Shown: piece after piece, positions 9,257 to 63,692 of the stretch | Layout: each line of letters begins with the position of its first letter | How positions within the stretch are numbered: position 1 is the stretch's first letter | Virus record (IMG/VR): IMGVR_UViG_3300025646_005470 | DNA from: a virus | Strand: one strand, 5' to 3' | DNA: 64,000 nt | Translations under genes and position numbers: made by a program | Notes under the pieces: generated by a model | Seen by the model: the letters and a program-made list of their open reading frames with translations, nothing else | Told to the model about the DNA's origin: nothing | The model's database searches: none

Positions 9257-9661
9257 TTATAGTGTCTCCGACTGACTAAATTCTAAATTTTTTGATCCTG
9301 TAGTTGCAATAGTGCCACCATTTAGTACAACTCCATCCATAGAACTAATTAATTTACCAACAGGATCACTATTTTCTTTAAACACATCAGGATGTTCTAC
9401 TGCAAATTTAAATATCCATCCTGCACCTGTTAGTGTTGGAGCACCATTAACATTTAGATCAGCAACCTGTACAGGATCATTTGAAATAATTACCTGTGAA
9501 AACATTGCAATCATTTGTACAAGAGAATCAAAATCTTTTTGTGTAGCATCTTGATAACTGCCTGTTTGTGTTATATCAATATTTGTATACATTATATAAA
9601 ACTGTAGATTACTACTGATAAACTCGCCACCTCTTGCCGCTCCATTAATTCTAACTGCCAT
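9257..9661 (-). CDS. Hypothetical protein (probable virion protein)
   Basis: 134-aa ORF; TAATG coupling to the upstream gene. Confidence 0.7.
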   Translation of the reverse strand: MAVRINGAARGGEFISSNLQFYIMYTNIDITQTGSYQDATQKDFDSLVQMIAMFSQVIISNDPVQVADLNVNGAPTLTGAGWIFKFAVEHPDVFKENSDPVGKLISSMDGVVLNGGTIATTGSKNLEFSQSETL

Positions 9662-11649
9662 TATTTTTTCTTCCTTCTTAAATCTAAATTTTTAACCTTA
9701 TCAGCATATGACGGACCTTTGCCTCTGCCAAATTTATATCCAATGTATGCACCTGCCAATGCCGCACCCACAGCCATTGCTTTTGATGGTTTTACTTGTT
9801 CGCCATCTGCATAATCACGCTCACGTGATAGTTGTTGTAGTGTAGACATCATTGATGATTTAGGTGCGTTAGCTCTAAAGTAATTGAATAAACTTGAAAC
9901 CAATGTTCTTTTTTCTCTTGTTTTTAGATTTTCCCAATCACCTGCTAATCTTTTCATTGATTTTAAACTGCTGTCACTTACAAAAAGCATAGATTGTAAC
10001 TGTTGTAGCATTCTTTTTTCTGCATCAGCATTTGCACCAGATGATGATATGTGATTTAAATAATCTTTAATCTGAGCCATGTTTGGACGCATTCTTTTTA
10101 ATAATATTTCACTGTTTTTTTCGTCTGCAAATTTTGTAATTGATCCTTTACCAAACAAGGCGTGTAACATTGCATACATATCTGTGCCATTTGATCTAAA
10201 ATAATCAAAGTTTCCATAACTCATTGTTTTACCAGCATAGTTACTTGCTACAGAAGAATACTTAAACTCTCTATTTAAAACCTGTAGTGCAATTGCATGT
10301 GCAAAAATGTTATTTGCCATATCTTGTGCTGAATAATTTGATAATCCGTGACGTGATCTAAACATTCTTGCTTCTGTCATTAAATCGTTTACAAAATCTA
10401 TTTCTATTTTTTCGCTTTTCATAAAATTTTTTCTACTAAAGTCTAGTCTATCCACAACTTTTACTGCATTTCCAATATGGTCAACTGCAACAAAGCCTTC
10501 TGGATCTCTTACTTTTAGTTCTCCATTAACTTCTTCAAAACTATCAATTGCTTTGATATTTGATAGTTTCTTATATAATATGTCTTTTATAGCACCTAAT
10601 TTAAGCCACAGTGCATAAAAGTTCATCATATTACTCTTATTAGTATTTAAGTAATTTAGCCCAATTTGTAGGGCATTTAAACGGCGCTGTCCTGCAGGTC
10701 CTTCTTTGCCTGTTTTTAGTGCCGCAATTTTTTCTTCTGCTCTACGTGTGTAGTCAGCAACAAACTGATTGAAAAACTGTTCAGGATCTTGCTGTATAGA
10801 ATTCTGTTTAATATTAGCATTCATGTTAGCCGCAATATTGATTTTTAAATCATTGCCTGCATCTGATCCATCTAAAAATTCAAATGCATTACCAATTGAC
10901 GTTAAATGTTGTTGTGCATCAGCAATTGCTTTTTCAACTGCATTTGATTCTTGTGCTGTCATTGTTGCCATACCTGAAAAATCTTTTATATATGCATCGT
11001 CAAACCAAACATCAGATGTAGGTGTTAGATCAGATAAATCAACTTTGAATGATGCTGACATTTTATCTAAACTTTCTCCACTATATGATGTATGAAAAAC
11101 AATACCAACTTTTGCTTGTTGTATCTTTTTACCTAATTCTGAATCTGTTGGCACTGCGTATGTGATTGTGTTTGGTTTAAATGTTATATAAGACTTGCCT
11201 TCAAATCCTCTTGTTTTTAAATCACCTTGTGTGAACATTAAATCACCTTGTAGTACACCTTTAATGTTTAACTTTGATAGGTTTTGTAAAACTAAATTTA
11301 ACTTGTCACGCAATCCACTTTTGTCTTGCTCACCAACATCTGCATGATTGGCTTCAATATCTTTTGATGATTTATTTAATTTTGGATTTTTAGCAAATAC
11401 ACCTTTTGTACCTACAAAAAATTTACCATCACTTGGATCTGTTCCGCAAACTATTGCAGGAGATCCATCCCACTTTGTGGTAATATTAAACTTTTTAGGT
11501 GAATGACCTTTTACTATAGTTGATAAATTTTTTAAAAAACGAATGGCTTCTACAGCACCTTTTTTACCTTTAAAAAGAGATAGATCTTCTAAATGCGTTA
11601 GATGTGTGTTTACATCTTCGTGTAGGATATTAATTTCCGTCAGTTTCAT
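9661..11649 (-). CDS. Covalent nucleotidyltransferase/ligase-like protein (DUF6267-like N-terminal domain) plus C-terminal unknown domain
   Basis: NTHLTHLED, TTKWDGSPA (KxDG), QGDLMF, PEGFVA, KVVDR motifs. Confidence 0.6.
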   Translation of the reverse strand: MKLTEINILHEDVNTHLTHLEDLSLFKGKKGAVEAIRFLKNLSTIVKGHSPKKFNITTKWDGSPAIVCGTDPSDGKFFVGTKGVFAKNPKLNKSSKDIEANHADVGEQDKSGLRDKLNLVLQNLSKLNIKGVLQGDLMFTQGDLKTRGFEGKSYITFKPNTITYAVPTDSELGKKIQQAKVGIVFHTSYSGESLDKMSASFKVDLSDLTPTSDVWFDDAYIKDFSGMATMTAQESNAVEKAIADAQQHLTSIGNAFEFLDGSDAGNDLKINIAANMNANIKQNSIQQDPEQFFNQFVADYTRRAEEKIAALKTGKEGPAGQRRLNALQIGLNYLNTNKSNMMNFYALWLKLGAIKDILYKKLSNIKAIDSFEEVNGELKVRDPEGFVAVDHIGNAVKVVDRLDFSRKNFMKSEKIEIDFVNDLMTEARMFRSRHGLSNYSAQDMANNIFAHAIALQVLNREFKYSSVASNYAGKTMSYGNFDYFRSNGTDMYAMLHALFGKGSITKFADEKNSEILLKRMRPNMAQIKDYLNHISSSGANADAEKRMLQQLQSMLFVSDSSLKSMKRLAGDWENLKTREKRTLVSSLFNYFRANAPKSSMMSTLQQLSRERDYADGEQVKPSKAMAVGAALAGAYIGYKFGRGKGPSYADKVKNLDLRRKKK

Positions 11650-34405: not shown

Positions 34406-34714
34406 CTATTCTGATTTAAAATCTAAATATTCTTGAGCTAAACGTTGTTCTTTTTCTTCCAACGTTTCTTCAATTGGATTATCACCATGTCTAGCAGGAA
34501 CAAATCTTAATTTTCTCTGTGCCTTTTTAGTTGGTGTTAATGCGTCAATGTCAATGTCTTGCTCATTCGGTTCAGTTGTTGCGTCTAAAGTTACTTCGTC
34601 TTCTTCTGCAACATCTTCTTCTGCTTTAGGTTGTACAACTAAAATAGTTGGCTGAATCCCAGCAAGTGTAAGTAATCTTGACAACGCATCATTTTCATTA
34701 ATTTTGTCTGACAT
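34406..34714 (-). CDS. Hypothetical protein with scaffold-like LAGI motif
   Basis: INENDALSRLLTLAGI. Confidence 0.7.
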   Translation of the reverse strand: MSDKINENDALSRLLTLAGIQPTILVVQPKAEEDVAEEDEVTLDATTEPNEQDIDIDALTPTKKAQRKLRFVPARHGDNPIEETLEEKEQRLAQEYLDFKSE

Positions 34715-35283
34715 TACTTTTTTCCTTTCGCAATATAACTTGTAACTTTTGATTCTTGTAATCCAGTTACTACTTCAACATTGCCGCCTTCGCTTTTTTG
34801 TTCTTTAGCAAGTGCTTTTAAAAAATTTTGTTTTGATTTTTCATCATGTACAATACCTTTAGTATCTGCTGATTCTTGTTTTGCATAGTCTTGTCCCATA
34901 ATTGGTTCATAAGCATCATTAGATTTTTGTGCATTTAGTTTTTCTTGTTCTTGATTTAAAGGATCACCTTCGTGTGTTACTACTACACATTCGTATGGTA
35001 AACCCATTCTGTCTGATAAATGTCTTGCAAGTGTATCATATGATACTGGCATAGCAGTTGTAACTTCAACTATTGTTACTTCTGTATTGGTAACATTTGC
35101 TGGAAAATGCAGTGGATGTTCCTGCATAATAGTTTTTTTAGGGCTACCTATTTTTACTACACTGTATGGTGCAAGTGCTAATTCCATTGCATCTAGGTGT
35201 GAGTTTTCAAGTATACCTGCAAAGTGTACTTTAAATGTGTACTCTTTTACTGCTTCTGCTAGATATTCTTTAAATGTTTTCAT
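34714..35283 (-). CDS. Putative capsid-internal protein
   Basis: N-terminus MKTFKEYLAE closely matches the T4 internal-protein capsid targeting sequence. Confidence 0.7.
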   Translation of the reverse strand: MKTFKEYLAEAVKEYTFKVHFAGILENSHLDAMELALAPYSVVKIGSPKKTIMQEHPLHFPANVTNTEVTIVEVTTAMPVSYDTLARHLSDRMGLPYECVVVTHEGDPLNQEQEKLNAQKSNDAYEPIMGQDYAKQESADTKGIVHDEKSKQNFLKALAKEQKSEGGNVEVVTGLQESKVTSYIAKGKK

Positions 35284-37724: not shown

Positions 37725-39347
37725 CTAATAATTAGTTGAGAATCTTGTTCCTTGTCTTATAGCATTGCCATTTGAATCTTTTATGATTTTACCACTAGAA
37801 TCTTTTACTACTCCTCCTTTTGGTGGTACATAATTTTTACTATCTGCATTGTATTTGCCAGTTCCTGCTGTTGCACTTTTAAACTTATCACCTAACCCTC
37901 CAAAAAAGTCTGTACTACTTCCGCCTGATTTTCCGCCAGCACTAAAACTTGATACTGCTGATTTTGTAGTACTGTAAACTTCACTAGCAATTTTATCAAT
38001 AGCATCACTAAAAGGTGTTGTACTAATGTTTTGTAAACTTCCGCCATATGCCGCACCTGCTGATGTTACATTGTGTGCAAATGCTTGTGAATTCATTACA
38101 TTTGATCCGCTACCTACTGTTGCTGATCGTTGTTCGTCTGGCATTGCAGTTGTTAATCTTGTCCAGTCAATTTGTGTATTAGATGTTCCGGAACTACCTT
38201 CTGCTGGTGTTGTTGCAGTTATAGGTGTATCTGGCATTGTTAAACTATTTTGAAAATATTCATCAAAATTAATTGATACATCTTTAGCATCGGCCATATC
38301 ATAATTTAATGTTTCATATATAACTGTTTCATATGCAAACTGCATACCAATTTCAATTGGTGCACTTGATTCATAAGTTAATGTATCATGGTCCATTGAT
38401 ATTATTTTAGGATGTACAAATCTAATTAAATTATATTTTCTTCCATGCACTATAAACAAATCTAAACTTTTAATTGGGTAAGTTGTATTACTAATACTTG
38501 ACTCTAAACCAAAACTGTGTTGAGTTAAAAAATCTGATTCAGAAGATAGAGGATTTGTTTGATACAATCCTTTTTTATGTTGTCTATTGCCTCCATACTG
38601 GTCACTTCTATTTCTACCGTCTTTTAAATTTAATTCATACAAGTACTTAAATAGTTTAAGTGCGGCATTATTCATTGTATCATAAAAACGCACACTAATT
38701 GGATCATAATCAATACGTCTATATACATTTCTTTTTCTATTATATTGATTTAATGTATCATATTGAAAATTAACTTTTGGACCATCAATTTGTTTAATAT
38801 TAAAAACTAAAGAACGTTTAAGAGCATCCATTGCCCCTGAACGAGTTCTTTTTAAATCTGCTACTCGTTGACTAAACATTCCTGGAGGTCCTGAACCTAT
38901 ACTTTGTTGGTTTGTAAGTATTTGTTGATCTAATGATTCTATTTGTTCGCTATTAGCAAAAATTGTTTCAAACAAATCTTCACCTGCAAATCTAAATGTT
39001 GCAAGGTATTCAAATTTTTGTCTTGGAACACCAGTCATCAATGCTGTTGGTGACTGCCTTAATGAAAATGTATCTTGAGCTTTTGTTGGACCTTGTATTA
39101 TTGGATCACTTTTATTTGATGATCCTCTTTGAAAACTATTTTCGTTATTGACTTGAGCAATTGCTACTCTATTATAGTCATCTGTGTTCAAACTGTTGAT
39201 TGCTTGTTCGTTTTGTAATCTTAAAGTATTTTCTAAAGCCCCTGCCGCGGCTTGAAGTTCTGCTTCTGTGGAGACCGCAAGTTCAGTGTTCGCTTCAATG
39301 AACTTTGCGATCTCCGGAGTAATTTTGCTTGGGTCGACTGTACTCAT
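37725..39347 (-). CDS. Tail tube-fold baseplate/tube initiator protein (gp48/54-like)
   Basis: RKRNVYRRIDYDPISVRFYDT and DTLTYE resemble the tube fold; follows gp19. Confidence 0.55.
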   Translation of the reverse strand: MSTVDPSKITPEIAKFIEANTELAVSTEAELQAAAGALENTLRLQNEQAINSLNTDDYNRVAIAQVNNENSFQRGSSNKSDPIIQGPTKAQDTFSLRQSPTALMTGVPRQKFEYLATFRFAGEDLFETIFANSEQIESLDQQILTNQQSIGSGPPGMFSQRVADLKRTRSGAMDALKRSLVFNIKQIDGPKVNFQYDTLNQYNRKRNVYRRIDYDPISVRFYDTMNNAALKLFKYLYELNLKDGRNRSDQYGGNRQHKKGLYQTNPLSSESDFLTQHSFGLESSISNTTYPIKSLDLFIVHGRKYNLIRFVHPKIISMDHDTLTYESSAPIEIGMQFAYETVIYETLNYDMADAKDVSINFDEYFQNSLTMPDTPITATTPAEGSSGTSNTQIDWTRLTTAMPDEQRSATVGSGSNVMNSQAFAHNVTSAGAAYGGSLQNISTTPFSDAIDKIASEVYSTTKSAVSSFSAGGKSGGSSTDFFGGLGDKFKSATAGTGKYNADSKNYVPPKGGVVKDSSGKIIKDSNGNAIRQGTRFSTNY

Positions 39348-39371: not shown

Positions 39372-39974
39372 TTAGTTGATACCTGTTGTGCCACCAAATG
39401 TTAATGGGAAGTTAGGGAATATCTCTCCGCCGCCTGGACCAAAGTGTGTTGCATTGTCATATCTCATTGTCATGATAACTTGTACTGGTTCTGAAACCGC
39501 ATAATCACCATCTGAGTAGTCAACATTCTGTAAGAAACAACCTTCTAAGTTCCACTGTTCTAATTCAGCATCGTTAGTACCATCTAAGATTTCAATCTTT
39601 GTAGTGAATTTGTACTGACCACCACTGATTGGACCAGTTTGTTCAAAGTGGTTTAACTGCTTCTGAACTTGCTGACCTGTTAATCTTGAGATACTGTTAT
39701 TGATGTCATCACGTAGAGTAATTGTTACCGGTTCCCACGTGTGTTTACCCATCAAGTATGCTACTGAGTTATAAACATGTACAGGAACTTCTTCGTGTGT
39801 TACTTTTGGTCTTGTTATGTTCATAACCTGCTGAGTTAAATCAACTGGGTTAGCACCTAAGTTACCAAAACCTGTGAAACGTACTCTAAAACGATATTTA
39901 AGTTTTGGTTGTAAAATACCACCTCTACCTGTAGCACCGTCTATTGGAACGCCAAATTTGTTTAATGTAGCCAT
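39372..39974 (-). CDS. gp19: Tail tube protein
   Basis: GKHTWEPVTITLRDD, WNLEGCF, MRYDNA; follows the sheath gene. Confidence 0.85.
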   Translation of the reverse strand: MATLNKFGVPIDGATGRGGILQPKLKYRFRVRFTGFGNLGANPVDLTQQVMNITRPKVTHEEVPVHVYNSVAYLMGKHTWEPVTITLRDDINNSISRLTGQQVQKQLNHFEQTGPISGGQYKFTTKIEILDGTNDAELEQWNLEGCFLQNVDYSDGDYAVSEPVQVIMTMRYDNATHFGPGGGEIFPNFPLTFGGTTGIN

Positions 39975-58424: not shown

Positions 58425-60134
58425 TTATGTCGCTGGAGTATCTGTGTCTGGAGTTAATGGTGATTCAGCACCGGCATCTGCGGCATCACCTGCTGGCTCA
58501 TCTGTAGGACCTTCTAGATCAGAAGCTGGCATTGGAGCCGCGCCTACATCTGATAATCCTGCACCTCCGGCTACATCATCACCTTGTGCTGGTGGTTGTG
58601 TACTATTAGCATTTTCTTCTGCCCATAGTTTTTCATTTCGATAAATTTCACCTTCATCAAGTCCAAGATAACGTGACATAGCAAAACGTTTTGAAATAAA
58701 TGGAATCTGTTGTAGTTGTGTAAAGATACTAACCTGTTGATTGTCGATTTCAATTTGTCTGTATTTGCCAAAGTTTTGTGGCTCATTAAATTGTATTTCA
58801 AATGAACCAGAATCAATTTCAATACCTCTGTGCTTTAAGAACATTTTGAATTCTTTGTCAAGTGTAGGCATAACCATTGACTGTAAACGTTGACAAAATT
58901 TTGTAAAACGGAATTCTTGAATATATGCTGTACCAACTCTACCATCAGTGAATGCTGAACCTGGATCATCTGGTGTTGATGGCAAATAACTTGATGGAAT
59001 TCTTAAACCTTTCATTAGCTTATTATTAAAGTATTTTAAGTCATCAATTTCACCTAGGTTTTGACCACCTGGTAGTGTTTCAACTTTAGAACCTCTACCT
59101 TCAGCCGTTTGTGCAAAGAAATAATCTTCAATCTGTGATAATGGATTGTAAGCGGCATCCATAATGTTTGCTCCACCGCCTGTTTTGTTTGGAATACGTT
59201 TTTGATGAATTTCATTTTTAACACGTTCAATAAATGCCATCGCTTTATTGGTTGGCATGTTACCTACGTCAATGTAAAACACTCTACGTTCTGGTGCTCT
59301 TTGAACTCTATAAATGATAATTGCATCTTCTAGTAATTCTTTTTGTTTGTACACTTTGAATATTGCTTCTAACACCGAAGTACCAAAAGGCCAAAATCTA
59401 TCCATGCCTTCTGATAATGAAATGTGTGCAATGTGTGAAGCATCAACAGGTGTTGTCATCACTTCTAAATTAAATCTACCTGCTTGTGAACTTGTTGTTG
59501 CTGTGGTAATACCTCTGTATTTTGCATCAGTGGCAAAAGGCATGTTACCGCTTTGGTATGCTGTTGGAGCCGTGTATTGGTATTGACTCATTGTGGTTAA
59601 ATTTAAATTTTGTAAATTTAAATCCAAGTCTCTGATAAAATATGCTTCTGGCTTTTTACCTTTGCCTTCGTTAACAACAATCTTTTCAATCTTTGCATGA
59701 TCAACCCATAACAACTTGTAGGTTTCTGGATCTCTAACAAATACCTGATCACCATACTTGATTACATTTCTAAAAAGTTTAAAACATCTCTTGTCCCAAT
59801 CATTAACATTGGACCATTGTTTGATTGCTTGATCTAAAATTTCTGTTTCTGTATCAGTTGGTTTGTCTTTGTAAAAAATTCTAAACGGAACACCTGTCTT
59901 TGGATCGTTTTGAGTTGAAAATTCTGCAATGGTATCAAGTGCCGCGTTTATCTCTGTGTCAAGATCCATTTGATCATATTGATAATAACGCTCAATACGA
60001 TTTGGCTGACCTGCATATACTTCTGGTAACCATGAGCTGTATTTTGATTGTGATGATTGTCCGTATGAACTGCCCACAGGACTTTGCTGTCCTAGTTTAG
60101 TTTCATATGTAGTAAAGTGTTTTTTCCAACTCAT
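58425..60134 (-). CDS. gp20: Portal protein
   Basis: LEDAIIIYRVQRAPERRVFYIDVGNMP, EDYFF, GSKVETLPGG, LRIPSSYL. Confidence 0.96.
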   Translation of the reverse strand: MSWKKHFTTYETKLGQQSPVGSSYGQSSQSKYSSWLPEVYAGQPNRIERYYQYDQMDLDTEINAALDTIAEFSTQNDPKTGVPFRIFYKDKPTDTETEILDQAIKQWSNVNDWDKRCFKLFRNVIKYGDQVFVRDPETYKLLWVDHAKIEKIVVNEGKGKKPEAYFIRDLDLNLQNLNLTTMSQYQYTAPTAYQSGNMPFATDAKYRGITTATTSSQAGRFNLEVMTTPVDASHIAHISLSEGMDRFWPFGTSVLEAIFKVYKQKELLEDAIIIYRVQRAPERRVFYIDVGNMPTNKAMAFIERVKNEIHQKRIPNKTGGGANIMDAAYNPLSQIEDYFFAQTAEGRGSKVETLPGGQNLGEIDDLKYFNNKLMKGLRIPSSYLPSTPDDPGSAFTDGRVGTAYIQEFRFTKFCQRLQSMVMPTLDKEFKMFLKHRGIEIDSGSFEIQFNEPQNFGKYRQIEIDNQQVSIFTQLQQIPFISKRFAMSRYLGLDEGEIYRNEKLWAEENANSTQPPAQGDDVAGGAGLSDVGAAPMPASDLEGPTDEPAGDAADAGAESPLTPDTDTPAT

Positions 60135-60217: not shown

Positions 60218-62536
60218 TTATAGTTTTTCTAAAGCCGCTACTTGTTTTTTCATTGTCTCAAGTTGCTGTTGTTGTAGAGAAATTGTTGTTTCATAAAATG
60301 CTGTTTCTGGAGAAGAATTTGGATCGCTTGATCCTCCCATTGGAAGATACTGTTTCATAATACGCATTCTAGCATCATTTAAAACTGATGGGTCTGTGTT
60401 TGCTACTCCATTGGCTTTTTCTTCTTCATTTTCTTTATTACCTAGATCATCAATTTTAGCTTTTTCTATCAATTTACCAGCTTCTAACGATGCTTTGTAA
60501 TCGTATTCACTAAAATATTTTTCAAATTCGCTACGATTTCCTTCCATTAATTTAGCCATAGCATCTTGATTTTTTTTGTTATTCTCATCAAGTGTACTAA
60601 CTAAGTTTTTTAATGTTGTGTCTAACTGTGTAAGTTCGTCAGTGTACTCTGCAATTTTACTGTCATCACGATATTTTGCATTGCTTTCATACCATGCGGC
60701 GCCGCCGGCTGGCATAACTGCTTTGTTTTGTTCTCTTTCAAGTTTGCTTTGAAGTCTTTCTCTTCGAGCTTGTAAATCTGTAATCTCTTGACCGCCATAT
60801 ACATTTCCTTGTCTTGCTTCTTTTTCAATTGCTTTATATGGATTTAAGAAATCCTCGTTGAATCTTTCATTTCTAGATGTACCAATAAATGGTATATCCA
60901 TTGATATCATTTCCCAGCCGGCTACAATTGCTCTTGTAATTGCATCACCTAGTGCTGAAAAAATTGGTCCAAGTGCTTTTGCAATAAAGTCTCCAATACT
61001 TGTTGCTTGGGTAAGATCACCCATCCAGTTGCCTAACCATGTGCCTATTTTATCAGCAAAACCCAAAACCCAATCTGCTAATTTTTGTGCATTCTCTGTA
61101 AGCATAGTCATTGTTTTTTCAATTGCTTTTAGTAATTTGTCATTGCCAAATAATCTTGTAAAGAATGTGTTAAATACCATTTTAAATTTTTGTGTTGCAC
61201 GTTCAAAATTAATAAAAGCAACTGACAGTTGATCAATTTTTGATTCTTGTCTTAGTTTTTGAAGATCTTTGTATATTTCTATTTTACCATCTTCTTCTAA
61301 CTGTTGAATTTTATTAATTAATGCAATTTGTTGTCCAGCCGCCGCCGCATATTCTGTGTTAGAACGTTCAATAATTCCTAGTCTTTCTCGTTCAGCTTTA
61401 CTAGTGTTAGCAATTTCATCAATTAAATTTGCAGTGGCTTCTGCCGCTTCTTGATCACTCATGCTTTCTAAATTGTTTATAATACCATCTAATGAATTAT
61501 ACAATCTCTTGTTAACTGCTAGTAATGATCTACCTGCTTCTGTAAAGAACAATCCTCCTCGTCCATATGCCTGTGTAAATGTTGTAGCAAGTTGATCACC
61601 AAACTGTGTTCCTAGTCCAGCAAACATACCTGCAACTGTTTGTGTTGCGGCTATCAATGTACGCTGTACTGTTGCTGGTAATGTATTCATTCTATTAGTA
61701 AATGCGTCTATCGATGTTGCTGATTTTATCACTGCATCAATTTGATCTCTACTTACATTTGAAAGTTGAGTAAACGCTGTAATATTTTTTAAATAGTTCG
61801 AAGCCATTTCTTCTAAATATTCGTTATTTTCGTTTGAAAGAATACCAGCATCTTTTAGTTGTTCAATATAACTTCCGGTATATTCTGTTAGTTCTGACAA
61901 ACTCATGCCTAACAAACCTTGACTTTGTAAATTATCCCTAATTGATTTGTTTAGCTCAGAAAAATTTCGAGTTCCTAAAATTCCAACTGATGTTGCATAC
62001 TTGCCAAGAATTTCTGTATATTGATCTATACCCATTTCAGCCGCCACTGCCGCCTTTGCTAATCCCATTGCTCCCTGTTCAAATCTAAAACCCATTGAGA
62101 ACATTTGTCTATAAGCATCTGAAAACTGTTTTAATCTTCCAATTACTGCTCCAATTGCCATTGCAAAGCCGCCTACAGCCGCACCTATAAATCCTAATTT
62201 CATAGCAAATCTTCCCATTATTAGGTTAACTGATTTGAAAGGAGTTTTTAAATTTTTATCAACTAAACTTTTAGTATAATTTCCACTTTTTTCACGTAAC
62301 GACTTAACAAGATTTTTCGAATTTTGACTTTGTGCTTTCATGCTTTCTTCAAATCTTTGAGTAAGTGTTTTTATTGATTTAGTTTGAGTTTGTTGTTCTT
62401 TTAAATCTTTTTCGTCGGATTTTTTAGAACCTTCTAATGCTTTAAGAATTTTGTTTTGAGTGGCTTCGGTAGCCCATTCTGGTATATCGCTACCAAAATT
62501 TATTTTATCTATAGTGATTCTATCGCCGTCAGCCAT
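60218..62536 (-). CDS. Probable tail tape measure protein
   Basis: 772 aa, helical Ala/Gly-rich with hydrophobic segments; divergent from the gp26-like gene. Confidence 0.65.
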   Translation of the reverse strand: MADGDRITIDKINFGSDIPEWATEATQNKILKALEGSKKSDEKDLKEQQTQTKSIKTLTQRFEESMKAQSQNSKNLVKSLREKSGNYTKSLVDKNLKTPFKSVNLIMGRFAMKLGFIGAAVGGFAMAIGAVIGRLKQFSDAYRQMFSMGFRFEQGAMGLAKAAVAAEMGIDQYTEILGKYATSVGILGTRNFSELNKSIRDNLQSQGLLGMSLSELTEYTGSYIEQLKDAGILSNENNEYLEEMASNYLKNITAFTQLSNVSRDQIDAVIKSATSIDAFTNRMNTLPATVQRTLIAATQTVAGMFAGLGTQFGDQLATTFTQAYGRGGLFFTEAGRSLLAVNKRLYNSLDGIINNLESMSDQEAAEATANLIDEIANTSKAERERLGIIERSNTEYAAAAGQQIALINKIQQLEEDGKIEIYKDLQKLRQESKIDQLSVAFINFERATQKFKMVFNTFFTRLFGNDKLLKAIEKTMTMLTENAQKLADWVLGFADKIGTWLGNWMGDLTQATSIGDFIAKALGPIFSALGDAITRAIVAGWEMISMDIPFIGTSRNERFNEDFLNPYKAIEKEARQGNVYGGQEITDLQARRERLQSKLEREQNKAVMPAGGAAWYESNAKYRDDSKIAEYTDELTQLDTTLKNLVSTLDENNKKNQDAMAKLMEGNRSEFEKYFSEYDYKASLEAGKLIEKAKIDDLGNKENEEEKANGVANTDPSVLNDARMRIMKQYLPMGGSSDPNSSPETAFYETTISLQQQQLETMKKQVAALEKL

Positions 62537-62634: not shown

Positions 62635-63477
62635 ATGAGCGAAAGCAAACTAGCAAAATACTACAGAGCACCAAAACTGTATGTTCGTATACCAAGTCAG
62701 GGTGCATTTAATCCTGATATAGAGCAGTCTATGAGTGAAGAACTTGCTGTTATGGCAATGACTGGGCGTGACGAAACTATGATCAAAAACCCAGATGCGT
62801 TGTTAAACGGAGAAGCAATTACATCAGTTATCAAAAGTTGTGTTCCAGGAATCAAAGATCCAAAGGATATTCCAATCACAGATGTTGATACTCTTTTAAT
62901 TGCTATTAAAATTGCAACCAACGGTGAAGAACACGAAGTAAGTGCTAAATGTCCAAAATGTAAAACAGAAACTAGAGGTGTAGTAAATTTAAGAAACGTA
63001 CTACCTACTGTAAAATTATTGGAATCAGAATACCCAATCAAATTAGATACCGGTGTAACCGTTTATATTAAACCTTATACCTATGCTATGCAAACCGAAG
63101 CGGCGTTGGCGGCATTTGACGAAACAAAAACATTGCAAAACTTAACTAAAGAAAAAGAAATAAATTCTGAAAGTATGGCAATATATAATAAAAGTTTTAG
63201 AAGAATGGCAGAAATGAGTGTTTCATTACTAGCAAGAAGTATTGTAAAAGTTGTTACTCCGGAAGGCGATGAAGTTTCTGATCCAAATGAAATTTTTGCA
63301 TTTATTCAAAACATTGACTCTACTGCGGCAAAAACAATCGATGACACTTTAGCAAAAATCAATTCAATTGATATAGACAAAAGAATTGAAATGACTTGTG
63401 AAAATGAAAACTGTAAAAATGTTTGGAGCACTGAAGTAGAATATAATGCGGCAGATTTTTTCGGAATTGGCTCTTAA
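62635..63477 (+). CDS. gp26: gp26-like baseplate hub/tail assembly chaperone
   Basis: RAPKLYVRIPSQG, MTGRDE...PDALLNG, DVDTLLIAIKIAT.G, CPKC and C-terminal CENENC, ends DFFGIGS. Confidence 0.7.
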   Translation: MSESKLAKYYRAPKLYVRIPSQGAFNPDIEQSMSEELAVMAMTGRDETMIKNPDALLNGEAITSVIKSCVPGIKDPKDIPITDVDTLLIAIKIATNGEEHEVSAKCPKCKTETRGVVNLRNVLPTVKLLESEYPIKLDTGVTVYIKPYTYAMQTEAALAAFDETKTLQNLTKEKEINSESMAIYNKSFRRMAEMSVSLLARSIVKVVTPEGDEVSDPNEIFAFIQNIDSTAAKTIDDTLAKINSIDIDKRIEMTCENENCKNVWSTEVEYNAADFFGIGS

Positions 63478-63692
63478 AGGCTGAGCCACAAGAAATAAAT
63501 GTCTACTTTGAACAATTAGAAAAAGAAAGAAACTCAATCAAACAACAGATAACCGAAATCTGTTGGTACATGCGTGGTTCCATATCTTGGGAAGAAGCAT
63601 GGAGTTTGAGTGATGTTGACCGTAATGACTTAACTAAATTTATTGGTGAAAACGCCGAACGATTTAAAAAGGCCGGTCAAATAGTTGTTTAG
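63447..63692 (+). CDS. Start-less ORF in the -1 frame (gp51/gpT-like extension), not in the ORF track
   Basis: Open 63447-63692: ...FFRNWLLKAEPQEINVYFEQLEKERNSIKQQITEICWYMRGSISWEEAWSLSDVDRNDLTKFIGENAERFKKAGQIVV*; first ATG only at 63570. Confidence 0.75.
   Translation, partial: CGRFFRNWLLKAEPQEINVYFEQLEKERNSIKQQITEICWYMRGSISWEEAWSLSDVDRNDLTKFIGENAERFKKAGQIVV
63456..63488 (+). other. Putative -1 programmed ribosomal frameshift signal
   Basis: Slippery T TTT TTC (63456-62), 5-nt spacer, stem TGGCTC/GAGCCA (63468-73/63483-88). Confidence 0.7.

What the first reader, a model, noticed from the sequence alone, without database searches (positions are those of the whole stretch)
62635..63692. Programmed -1 frameshift fusing the gp26-like gene to a hidden ORF: a lambda G/GT-type tail chaperone system in a T4-like phage
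gp26-like ends GCA GAT TTT TTC GGA ATT GGC TCT TAA. T TTT TTC is a canonical X XXY YYZ slippery heptamer, followed 5 nt later by a 6-bp GC-rich stem (TGGCTC/GAGCCA). The -1 frame is open from 63447 to 63692 with no usable start codon before 63570 and encodes a protein-like 78-aa extension (..CWYMRGSISWEEAWSLS..). Its stop overlaps the convergent neighbour's stop by 4 nt, as other real gene pairs here do (43593-6, 51427-30). The locus adjoins the tape measure gene, as lambda G-T and P2 E-E' do. To my knowledge T4 gp26 and gp51 are treated as separate genes, so this would unify T4-type hub-assembly factors with frameshifted tape-measure chaperones.
Basis: partly seen in the sequence, partly recalled or inferred. 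Interest (0 to 1): 0.85.

Follow-up and report, generated by a model that had tools for sequence, protein, structure and literature searches.

The report
Frameshift in baseplate-hub chaperone gene
One tail-assembly gene of this uncultured marine giant T4-related phage very probably makes a 280-residue and a 352-residue protein, because some ribosomes slip back one base on an invariant TTTTTTC; phage T4 makes the same short/long pair from two separate genes, 26 and 51.

Summary
The gp26-like gene (62635-63477, Pfam PF12322) carries an in-frame T_TTT_TTC at 63456-63462, 15 nt before its stop. A 76-codon -1 frame follows, with no ATG/GTG/TTG before 63570.

This is not chance. The same heptamer, in phase, plus a 55-95-codon -1 ORF occurs in every relative of this gene type that I sampled. 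That is 196 loci, 167 distinct peptides and about 26 clusters at 50% identity. They include RaK2, 121Q, PA5oct, Atu_ph07, KVP40 and 80/80 cyanophage contigs. The codon before the heptamer varies (10 codons, 9 amino acids) but always ends in T. The extension evolves as coding sequence.

Natural in-frame fusions exist. One 330-kb contig has a short and a long paralog in tandem. T4 gp51 is a PF12322 domain plus the same kind of C-terminal tail. So T4's gp26/gp51 pair equals the frameshift pair.

The G/GT-like tape-measure chaperone role is inferred, not shown: fold searches were inconclusive. I found no paper or database record reporting the slip.

This scan has noted the same signal on other DNA (142 notes, at least 137 genomes). 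I reached my reading before looking at those notes.

The parts
62635..63477 (+). gp26-like baseplate-hub gene. The 0-frame product is 280 aa (the short form).
   Evidence: PF12322 T4_baseplate, E 4e-19, 69.6 bits against a cut-off of 24.5. phrog_150 baseplate hub, E 3e-23. 582 homologs of about 280 aa. AF2 model with pLDDT 85.
63456..63462 (+). Slippery heptamer T_TTT_TTC, in X_XXY_YYZ phase with the gp26-like frame. It encodes the invariant F275-F276.
   Evidence: Sequence. Present and in phase in all 196 related loci of this arrangement; the preceding codon always ends in T.
63468..63488 (+). Hairpin 5 nt after the heptamer: 6-bp stem TGGCTC/GAGCCA with a 9-nt loop. It encloses the 0-frame stop and is a possible weak stimulator.
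   Evidence: RNAfold gives -9.2 kcal/mol, z = -1.2. It is kept in the four close relatives and in SCTP-2. Its arms also encode the conserved -1 peptide, so there is no independent covariation.
63462..63692 (+). -1 frame extension: 76 codons plus TAG, a gp51-C-terminal-like helical module. It is read only after the slip.
   Evidence: No start codon before 63570. Substitutions among five close relatives fall at codon positions 3/1/2 as 177/95/30. Homologs lie in the same place in 17 jumbo phages. There are 101 representative hits, including 11 in-frame fusions.
60218..62536 (-). Divergent 772-aa neighbour, the probable tape measure / hub protein and presumed client of the chaperone pair.
   Evidence: No family match. 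22% identical over about 248 aa to RaK2 ORF088, E 2e-6, which its depositors call tape-measure-like. The synteny portal <- this gene <- | -> gp26-like is the same in 121Q, RaK2 and L185. This assignment is an inference.

Best explanation
The gp26-like gene is decoded in two ways.
- Most ribosomes stop at TAA 63475-77 and give a 280-aa protein.
- A fraction slip back one base while Phe-tRNAs occupy TTT_TTC within T_TTT_TTC (63456-62). They then read CGG AAT TGG... to TAG 63690-92, giving a 352-aa protein: the gp26-like domain (residues 1-276) plus a 76-aa helical tail (junction ...ADFF|RNWLLK...).

The short and long forms correspond to T4 gp26 and gp51, the two hub-assembly chaperones. T4 encodes these as separate paralogs.

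By analogy with lambda gpG/gpGT, I propose the following. The shared domain holds the tape-measure/hub protein encoded next door. The extra tail, present in a minority of molecules, docks that complex to another tail part (hub or tube). Both forms leave before the tail is finished.

Shown here: the signal, its conservation, the coding nature of the extension, and the existence of in-frame and two-gene equivalents.
Inferred: that slippage occurs, its efficiency, and every binding step.
For: 1. The family assignment is solid: PF12322, E 4e-19.

2. The heptamer is conserved in phase.
- It is present in 15 annotated phages from distant groups: Atu_ph07, Phosso, PA5oct, SCTP-2, RAS14, RsoM2USA, 121Q, RaK2, CBB, XbC2, Munch, Vibrio 2.275.O, LR756511, KVP40 and cyanophage Bellamy.
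- It is present in 80/80 cyanophage-type contigs, 10/10 distinct IMG/VR jumbo loci and 79/80 metagenome loci.
- Totals are 167 distinct extensions in about 26 clusters at 50% identity. Of these, 165 have TTTTTTC and 2 have TTTTTTT.

3. Selection acts on the nucleotides. The codon before the heptamer is AGT, AAT, TCT, GAT, CAT, GGT, CGT, TAT, GTT or ACT (9 amino acids), and always ends in T.

4. The extension is coding. Differences fall at codon positions 3/1/2 as 177/95/30, and similarity between relatives begins directly after the heptamer.

5. No independent start exists in this window before 63570. In 40/167 relatives there is no ATG/GTG/TTG up to 12 codons past the heptamer.

6. Natural in-frame fusions exist. 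Eleven clusters of 327-346-aa proteins combine PF12322 with this tail. Their junction is F-R..., not an indel of the T run. The fused protein folds as one confident unit: pLDDT 95, pTM 0.90.

7. Two-gene equivalents exist.
- Contig L185 has a 286-aa short paralog without a slippery site, directly followed by a 340-aa long paralog.
- T4 gp51 residues 1-201 are PF12322 (E 4e-52), like gp26.
- The T4 gp51 tail matches phrog_634, as do the -1 ORFs of KVP40 and Bellamy.

8. In SP-15, LIS04 and HSE3 the gp26-like gene and its small ORF sit between the tube and tape-measure genes, which is the classical chaperone position.

9. A T4 review lists gp26 and gp51 as hub assembly chaperones and says gp51 is absent from the particle (PMC3004832).
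Against: - No protein or ribosome data exist for any of these phages, so the slip itself is unobserved.
- The hairpin is weak (z = -1.2) and differs among relatives.
- About three quarters of relatives do have some ATG/GTG/TTG near the junction: ATGA or TAATG in Atu_ph07, Phosso, 121Q and KVP40. Separate initiation is therefore possible there.
- In a Gram-positive phage group and in LR756508 the homologous ORF is in the +1 frame, sometimes with its own ATG. Covalent linkage by a -1 slip is therefore not universal.
- The window's extension matches the gp51-tail profile only weakly: no phrog_634 hit, hhalign P 5e-4, probability about 30%.
- Similarity to a solved tail chaperone is only suggestive: HK97 2ob9, Z 6.0, rmsd 3.9 A, 91 of 107 residues aligned.
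- The neighbour shows no detectable similarity to T4 gp29.
Confidence: 0.82

Rival explanations
1. The downstream ORF is a separate small gene (a free gp51-like peptide of about 8 kDa). It would be translated by termination-coupled re-initiation or from a non-canonical start. The T run would be kept only because the gp26 domain needs Phe-Phe.
For: Several relatives have an ATG overlapping the stop, and databases annotate a separate small gene there. T4 gp26 also ends ...EFFELL, so Phe-Phe is a protein-level feature. Relatives with the ORF in the +1 frame sometimes carry their own ATG.
Against: This window has no ATG/GTG/TTG for 36 codons, although that stretch is conserved as protein. 40/167 relatives lack any start. 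Phe-Phe does not explain why the first Phe codon is always TTT, nor why the third base of the variable preceding codon is always T. T4, which lacks the extension after gene 26, uses the non-slippery TTC TTT. In-frame fusions and T4 gp51 show that the tail works attached to the domain.
Confidence: 0.08
2. The long form is made, but by RNA polymerase stuttering on the T run (an extra U in some transcripts) rather than by ribosome slippage.
For: Homopolymer runs can cause transcriptional slippage (general knowledge). The product would be the same, and nothing tested here separates the two routes.
Against: The run is only 6-7 T, short for efficient stuttering (from memory, not tested here). It is kept at exactly T6-C in 165/167 cases rather than growing longer. 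It is always in the X_XXY_YYZ phase that tandem tRNA slippage needs, and most relatives have a stem a few bases downstream.
Confidence: 0.07
3. Chance open frame after a chance heptamer; only the 280-aa protein is made.
For: In-frame heptamers are common in this AT-rich window: 141 in 51 ORFs.
Against: The ORF is conserved across about 26 divergent clusters with a coding substitution pattern, and in-frame fused homologs exist.
Confidence: 0.01

Closest known systems
Phage T4 gp26 (208 aa) and gp51 (249 aa), hub assembly chaperones (Leiman et al. 2010, PMC3004832)
   Same: Same Pfam family PF12322 for the shared domain. gp51 is that domain plus a C-terminal tail of about 48 aa of the phrog_634 type, so T4 has the same short/long pair.
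   Different: T4 encodes the pair as two divergent paralogous genes. Gene 26 ends with the non-slippery TTC TTT and is followed by gene 25. The window makes both forms from one gene by recoding.
Lambda gpG/gpGT and the conserved -1 frameshift of tail assembly chaperone genes (Xu, Hendrix and Duda 2004, Mol Cell, cited from memory; paper not held); P2 E/E+E'
   Same: A -1 slip on an X_XXY_YYZ heptamer a few codons before the stop gives a minor long form that shares its N-terminus with a major short form. The gene lies next to the tape measure gene. In the Gram-positive relatives it sits between the tube and tape-measure genes.
   Different: No sequence similarity. The fold match to a solved chaperone (HK97 2ob9) is only suggestive. 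The domain is larger (about 275 aa, with a four-Cys zinc-ribbon-like motif). In the window the gene is divergent from the tape-measure-like gene and far from the tube gene at 39372-39974.
KVP40 gp26 plus the 55-aa 'baseplate hub assembly catalyst' ORF, and cyanophage gp26/gp51 pairs as annotated in GenBank
   Same: Same arrangement and the same T_TTT_TTC 6 nt before the stop.
   Different: They are annotated as two independent genes starting at an internal or overlapping ATG. No ribosomal slippage is recorded in any record I opened.

Membership tests
PF12322 T4_baseplate (gp26/gp51 family) | Profile match above the curated cut-off over the whole domain | tested here: met
   69.6 bits against a cut-off of 24.5, residues 41-276; phrog_150, E 3e-23.
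PF12322 T4_baseplate (gp26/gp51 family) | Two conserved Cys pairs and a C-terminal Phe-Phe | tested here: met
   C106, C109, C255, F275 and F276 are invariant or nearly so in 56 sequences. T4 gp26 has CTCG, CPEC and EFF.
gp51-type C-terminal tail (phrog_634) | Profile match of the extension | tested here: inconclusive
   No phrog_634 hit for the window's extension at E up to 1. Profile-profile comparison gives P 4-5e-4, probability 30-35%, over the core S.S..E...[LM][SP]..[ED]R; the reversed control gives P 0.52.
gp51-type C-terminal tail (phrog_634) | Position directly after a PF12322 domain | tested here: met
   Same position and same heptamer as in KVP40 and Bellamy, whose ORFs hit phrog_634 at E 3e-20 and 2e-25.
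Frameshifted tail assembly chaperones (lambda G/GT type) | X_XXY_YYZ site near the 3' end plus an open -1 frame, giving nested short and long products | tested here: met
   Met at the sequence level, with conservation. The products themselves have not been observed.
Frameshifted tail assembly chaperones (lambda G/GT type) | Gene lies between the tail tube and tape measure genes | tested here: not met
   In the window the gene is divergent from the tape-measure-like gene, and the tube gene is 23 kb away. The feature is met in relatives SP-15, LIS04 and HSE3.
Frameshifted tail assembly chaperones (lambda G/GT type) | Sequence or fold homology to gpG-like chaperones | tested here: inconclusive
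   Foldseek places HK97 2ob9_A at rank 3, E 0.6, probability 0.41. VIA gives Z 6.0, rmsd 3.9 A, 91/107 residues aligned. The match is within the noise range.
Frameshifted tail assembly chaperones (lambda G/GT type) | Binds the tape measure and tube proteins; absent from the virion | not testable with these tools
The only statement available is the T4 literature's, for gp51.

The most novel reading that the evidence does not exclude
A -1 frameshift on T_TTT_TTC at the end of the gp26-type gene is the ancestral and near-universal way that T4-related and many giant myophages make their tape-measure/hub chaperone pair. T4's separate gp26 and gp51 are a derived gene-duplication replacement. On this reading gp26/gp51 are the long-missing G/GT equivalents of T4-type tails, and the 'catalytic' gp51 is the minor long form.
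Probability: 0.6. Interest if true: 0.85.

Novelty: new variant of a known kind. Interest (0 to 1): 0.75.

Why it matters

If the slip is real, three things follow.
- It gives gp26 and gp51 a concrete role as the short and long forms of one chaperone.
- It shows two evolutionary routes to the same stoichiometric pair: recoding, or duplication.
- It corrects the annotation of hundreds of cyanophage, vibriophage and jumbo-phage genomes, where the long form is missing or is split into a start-less mini-gene.

It is directly testable in cultivated phages.

Tried and rejected
- **DNA search.** A DNA-level search of the phage collection found nothing.
- **Search for longer proteins.** The word-indexed search for longer proteins holding the extension found none. 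The full HMMER scan later found 11.
- **IMG/VR scan with a fused protein.** It returned only frameshift-type loci, whose tblastn pieces had been joined across frames. I first took these for fusions, then corrected this.
- **Fold searches against solved structures.** They gave no clear relative for either model. The wide search was filled by matches to the long helical hairpin, and the HK97 chaperone hit seen for the window's model did not recur among the top 50 for the fused-protein model.
- **NCBIfam.** It has no model for these proteins.
- **Literature.** Ten full-text searches found no paper linking gp26, gp51 or the baseplate hub to frameshifting. Xu et al. 2004 is not held. An 'except T4' statement quoted in earlier scan notes could not be verified; it is not in PMC3185693.
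- **Other heptamers in the window.** The two others followed by long -1 ORFs are plain TAATG junctions.

Full report
**What is in the window**

The + strand ORF 62635-63477 encodes a 280-aa protein of Pfam family PF12322 'T4_baseplate' (E 4e-19) and PHROG 150 'baseplate hub'. It ends GAT TTT TTC GGA ATT GGC TCT TAA, so T_TTT_TTC (63456-63462) is in X_XXY_YYZ phase, 15 nt before the end of the stop.

The -1 frame is open from 63447 to TAG 63690-92. Its first ATG/GTG/TTG is at 63570. A slip would give 276 + 76 = 352 aa, with the junction ...ADFF|RNWLLK.

Five bases after the heptamer a 6-bp stem (63468-73 with 63483-88) can form. It is weak: -9.2 kcal/mol, z = -1.2.

The surroundings are T4-like late genes:
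- portal, 58425-60134 (PF07230)
- a 772-aa protein without family, 60218-62536, divergent from the gp26-like gene
- major capsid protein, prohead protease, gp15-like protein and sheath
- a tube protein at 39372-39974

Close relatives are marine metagenome contigs.

**Is it more than chance?**

The window's 51 long ORFs hold 141 in-frame XXXYYYZ heptamers. Only three are followed by a -1 ORF of 60 codons or more, and the other two are ordinary TAATG junctions with the next gene.

Among the window and four relatives at 82-84% identity, substitutions in the extension fall at codon positions 3/1/2 as 177/95/30. The extension is therefore translated, including the 36 codons that lie before any start codon.

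**Conservation**

tblastn with the -1 peptide hits 17 jumbo phages. The hit always lies at or overlapping the end of the gp26-like gene. I read the junctions in these phages:
- Atu_ph07, PA5oct, SCTP-2, Phosso, RAS14
- 121Q, RaK2
- Vibrio 2.275.O, RsoM2USA, XbC2, Munch, CBB
- the 595-kb LR756511
- KVP40 and cyanophage Bellamy

Every one has T_TTT_TT(C/T) in phase, 6-36 nt before the stop, followed by a -1 ORF of 57-82 codons.

Wider scans gave the same result:
- 80 of 80 cyanophage-type IMG/VR loci
- 10 of 10 distinct jumbo loci
- 79 of 80 metagenome loci

In all there are 196 loci, 167 distinct extensions and about 26 clusters at 50% identity. TTTTTTC occurs 165 times and TTTTTTT twice.

The codon before the heptamer takes ten forms, for nine amino acids, and always ends in T. 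40 of 167 loci have no ATG/GTG/TTG in the -1 frame up to 12 codons past the site. Serine before the heptamer is AGT or TCT but never a C-, A- or G-ending codon. That points to selection on the base itself rather than on the residue.

**The link to T4**

In T4, gene 26 is followed by gene 25, and gene 51 is divergent from it. Gene 26 ends GAG TTC TTT GAG, which is not slippery.

- T4 gp51 residues 1-201 match PF12322 at E 4e-52, the same family as gp26. BLASTP of gp26 against gp51 gives E 2e-6.
- phrog_150 covers gp51 to its end, but gp26 only to profile position 235.
- The last 54 residues of gp51 match phrog_634 'baseplate hub assembly catalyst'. So do the -1 ORFs of KVP40 (E 3e-20) and Bellamy (E 2e-25). 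The KVP40 record itself notes the similarity to the C-terminus of T4 gp51.

T4 gp51 is therefore the in-frame counterpart of the predicted long form, and gp26 the counterpart of the short form.

The window's own extension is more distant. It has no phrog_634 hit. A profile-profile comparison gives P 4-5e-4 over a shared core, against P 0.52 for a reversed control. Together with the identical position and signal, I take the extension to be the same module, with moderate confidence.

**Natural experiments**

A full HMMER scan with the extension found 101 representatives. Eleven of them are proteins of 327-346 aa that carry the extension at their C-terminus, after a PF12322 domain. Their junction reads ...F-R-x-K-L..., with a single Phe, so they are not T-run indel artefacts. 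One of them, folded with a mixed alignment, gives pLDDT 95 and pTM 0.90. The tail forms four helices packed in a defined way.

One metagenome locus (L185, from a 329.5-kb contig) shows the T4 solution in tandem:
- a 286-aa short paralog that ends GAC TTT TTG ..., which is not slippery
- directly after it, a 340-aa long paralog
- the two are 24% identical
- both lie behind the same portal and tape-measure-like pair

Lineages that lost the slip thus kept both a short and a long form. A requirement for nested products predicts exactly this.

**Function**

The T4 literature lists gp26 and gp51 as hub assembly chaperones. [quoted passage not shown]

In Bacillus phage SP-15, Listeria phage LIS04 and Bacillus phage HSE3 the gene order is sheath, tube, gp26-like, small ORF, tape measure. 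That is the classical chaperone slot. One GenBank record already names a gp51 homolog 'tape measure protein assembly chaperone'.

The window's 772-aa neighbour resembles RaK2 ORF088 (E 2e-6), which its depositors call tape-measure-like. It does not resemble T4 gp29.

Fold comparison gives only a hint. The HK97 tail assembly chaperone 2ob9 aligns over 91 of its 107 residues to model residues 129-244 (Z 6.0, rmsd 3.9 A), and this score lies within the noise range. The viral structure library shows that the fold is widespread in myophages.

The G/GT-like mechanism is therefore an inference from gene logic, synteny and T4 genetics. It is not a demonstrated homology.

**Caveats and rivals**

- About three quarters of relatives have some start codon near the junction. 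Independent initiation could contribute there.
- A Gram-positive phage group and LR756508 carry the homologous ORF in the +1 frame. I did not resolve their mechanism.
- Transcriptional slippage on the T run cannot be excluded by sequence alone.

**Novelty**

Ten full-text searches found no paper that reports this slip. None of the 25 annotated records I opened marks ribosomal slippage here. Subscription literature was not searchable.

Earlier notes of this same scan describe the same signal on other genomes. I consulted them only after reaching this reading, and I do not count them as evidence.

Noticed in passing
L016 2690-2990; L020-L022 about 2200-2450; L023 about 2230-2500: In Streptococcus phage GXN1, Bacillus phages SP-15 and HSE3, Listeria phage LIS04 and the uncultured LR756508, the homologous extension ORF lies in the +1 frame relative to the gp26-like gene. 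LIS04 and LR756508 have an ATG in that frame inside the gp26 3' end; the others do not. This could be a +1/-2 slip at the Phe-Phe codons or separate initiation; I did not resolve it.
   Followed up: partly
L185 4139-6014 (contig VFQS010000017.1, 329.5 kb): Two tandem PF12322 paralogs, 24% identical: a short one (286 aa, no slippery site) and a long one (340 aa, extension in frame). This is an independent T4-like two-gene solution.
   Followed up: yes
L006 2803-3090 (T4, minus strand): The T4 record annotates a third product, gene 26', an internal in-frame C-terminal fragment of gp26. T4 therefore makes more than two proteins of this family.
   Followed up: no
window 34714-34725 and 9660-9692 (minus strand): A_AAA_AAG and A_AAT_TTA heptamers lie just before stops and are followed by long -1 ORFs. 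Both are ordinary TAATG overlaps with the next gene's ATG, not recoding candidates.
   Followed up: yes
window 37725-39347 (minus strand): A 540-aa protein next to the tube gene has a central region matching tail-tube PHROGs (E 3e-9). It may be a tube-like initiator or a decorated second tube protein.
   Followed up: no
L019 1501-2358 (phage CBB): CBB's gp26-like protein is annotated 'structural protein'. If that rests on virion proteomics, the short form may stay in the particle in that phage, unlike a pure chaperone.
   Followed up: no
BFVD hits of model ma6799df38f3a: The fold also matches proteins of 430-670 aa in other phages (Erwinia phage Special G, Ralstonia phage RSF1, PaBG). The gp26/gp51 fold therefore seems far more widespread in myophages than the Pfam family suggests.
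   Followed up: no
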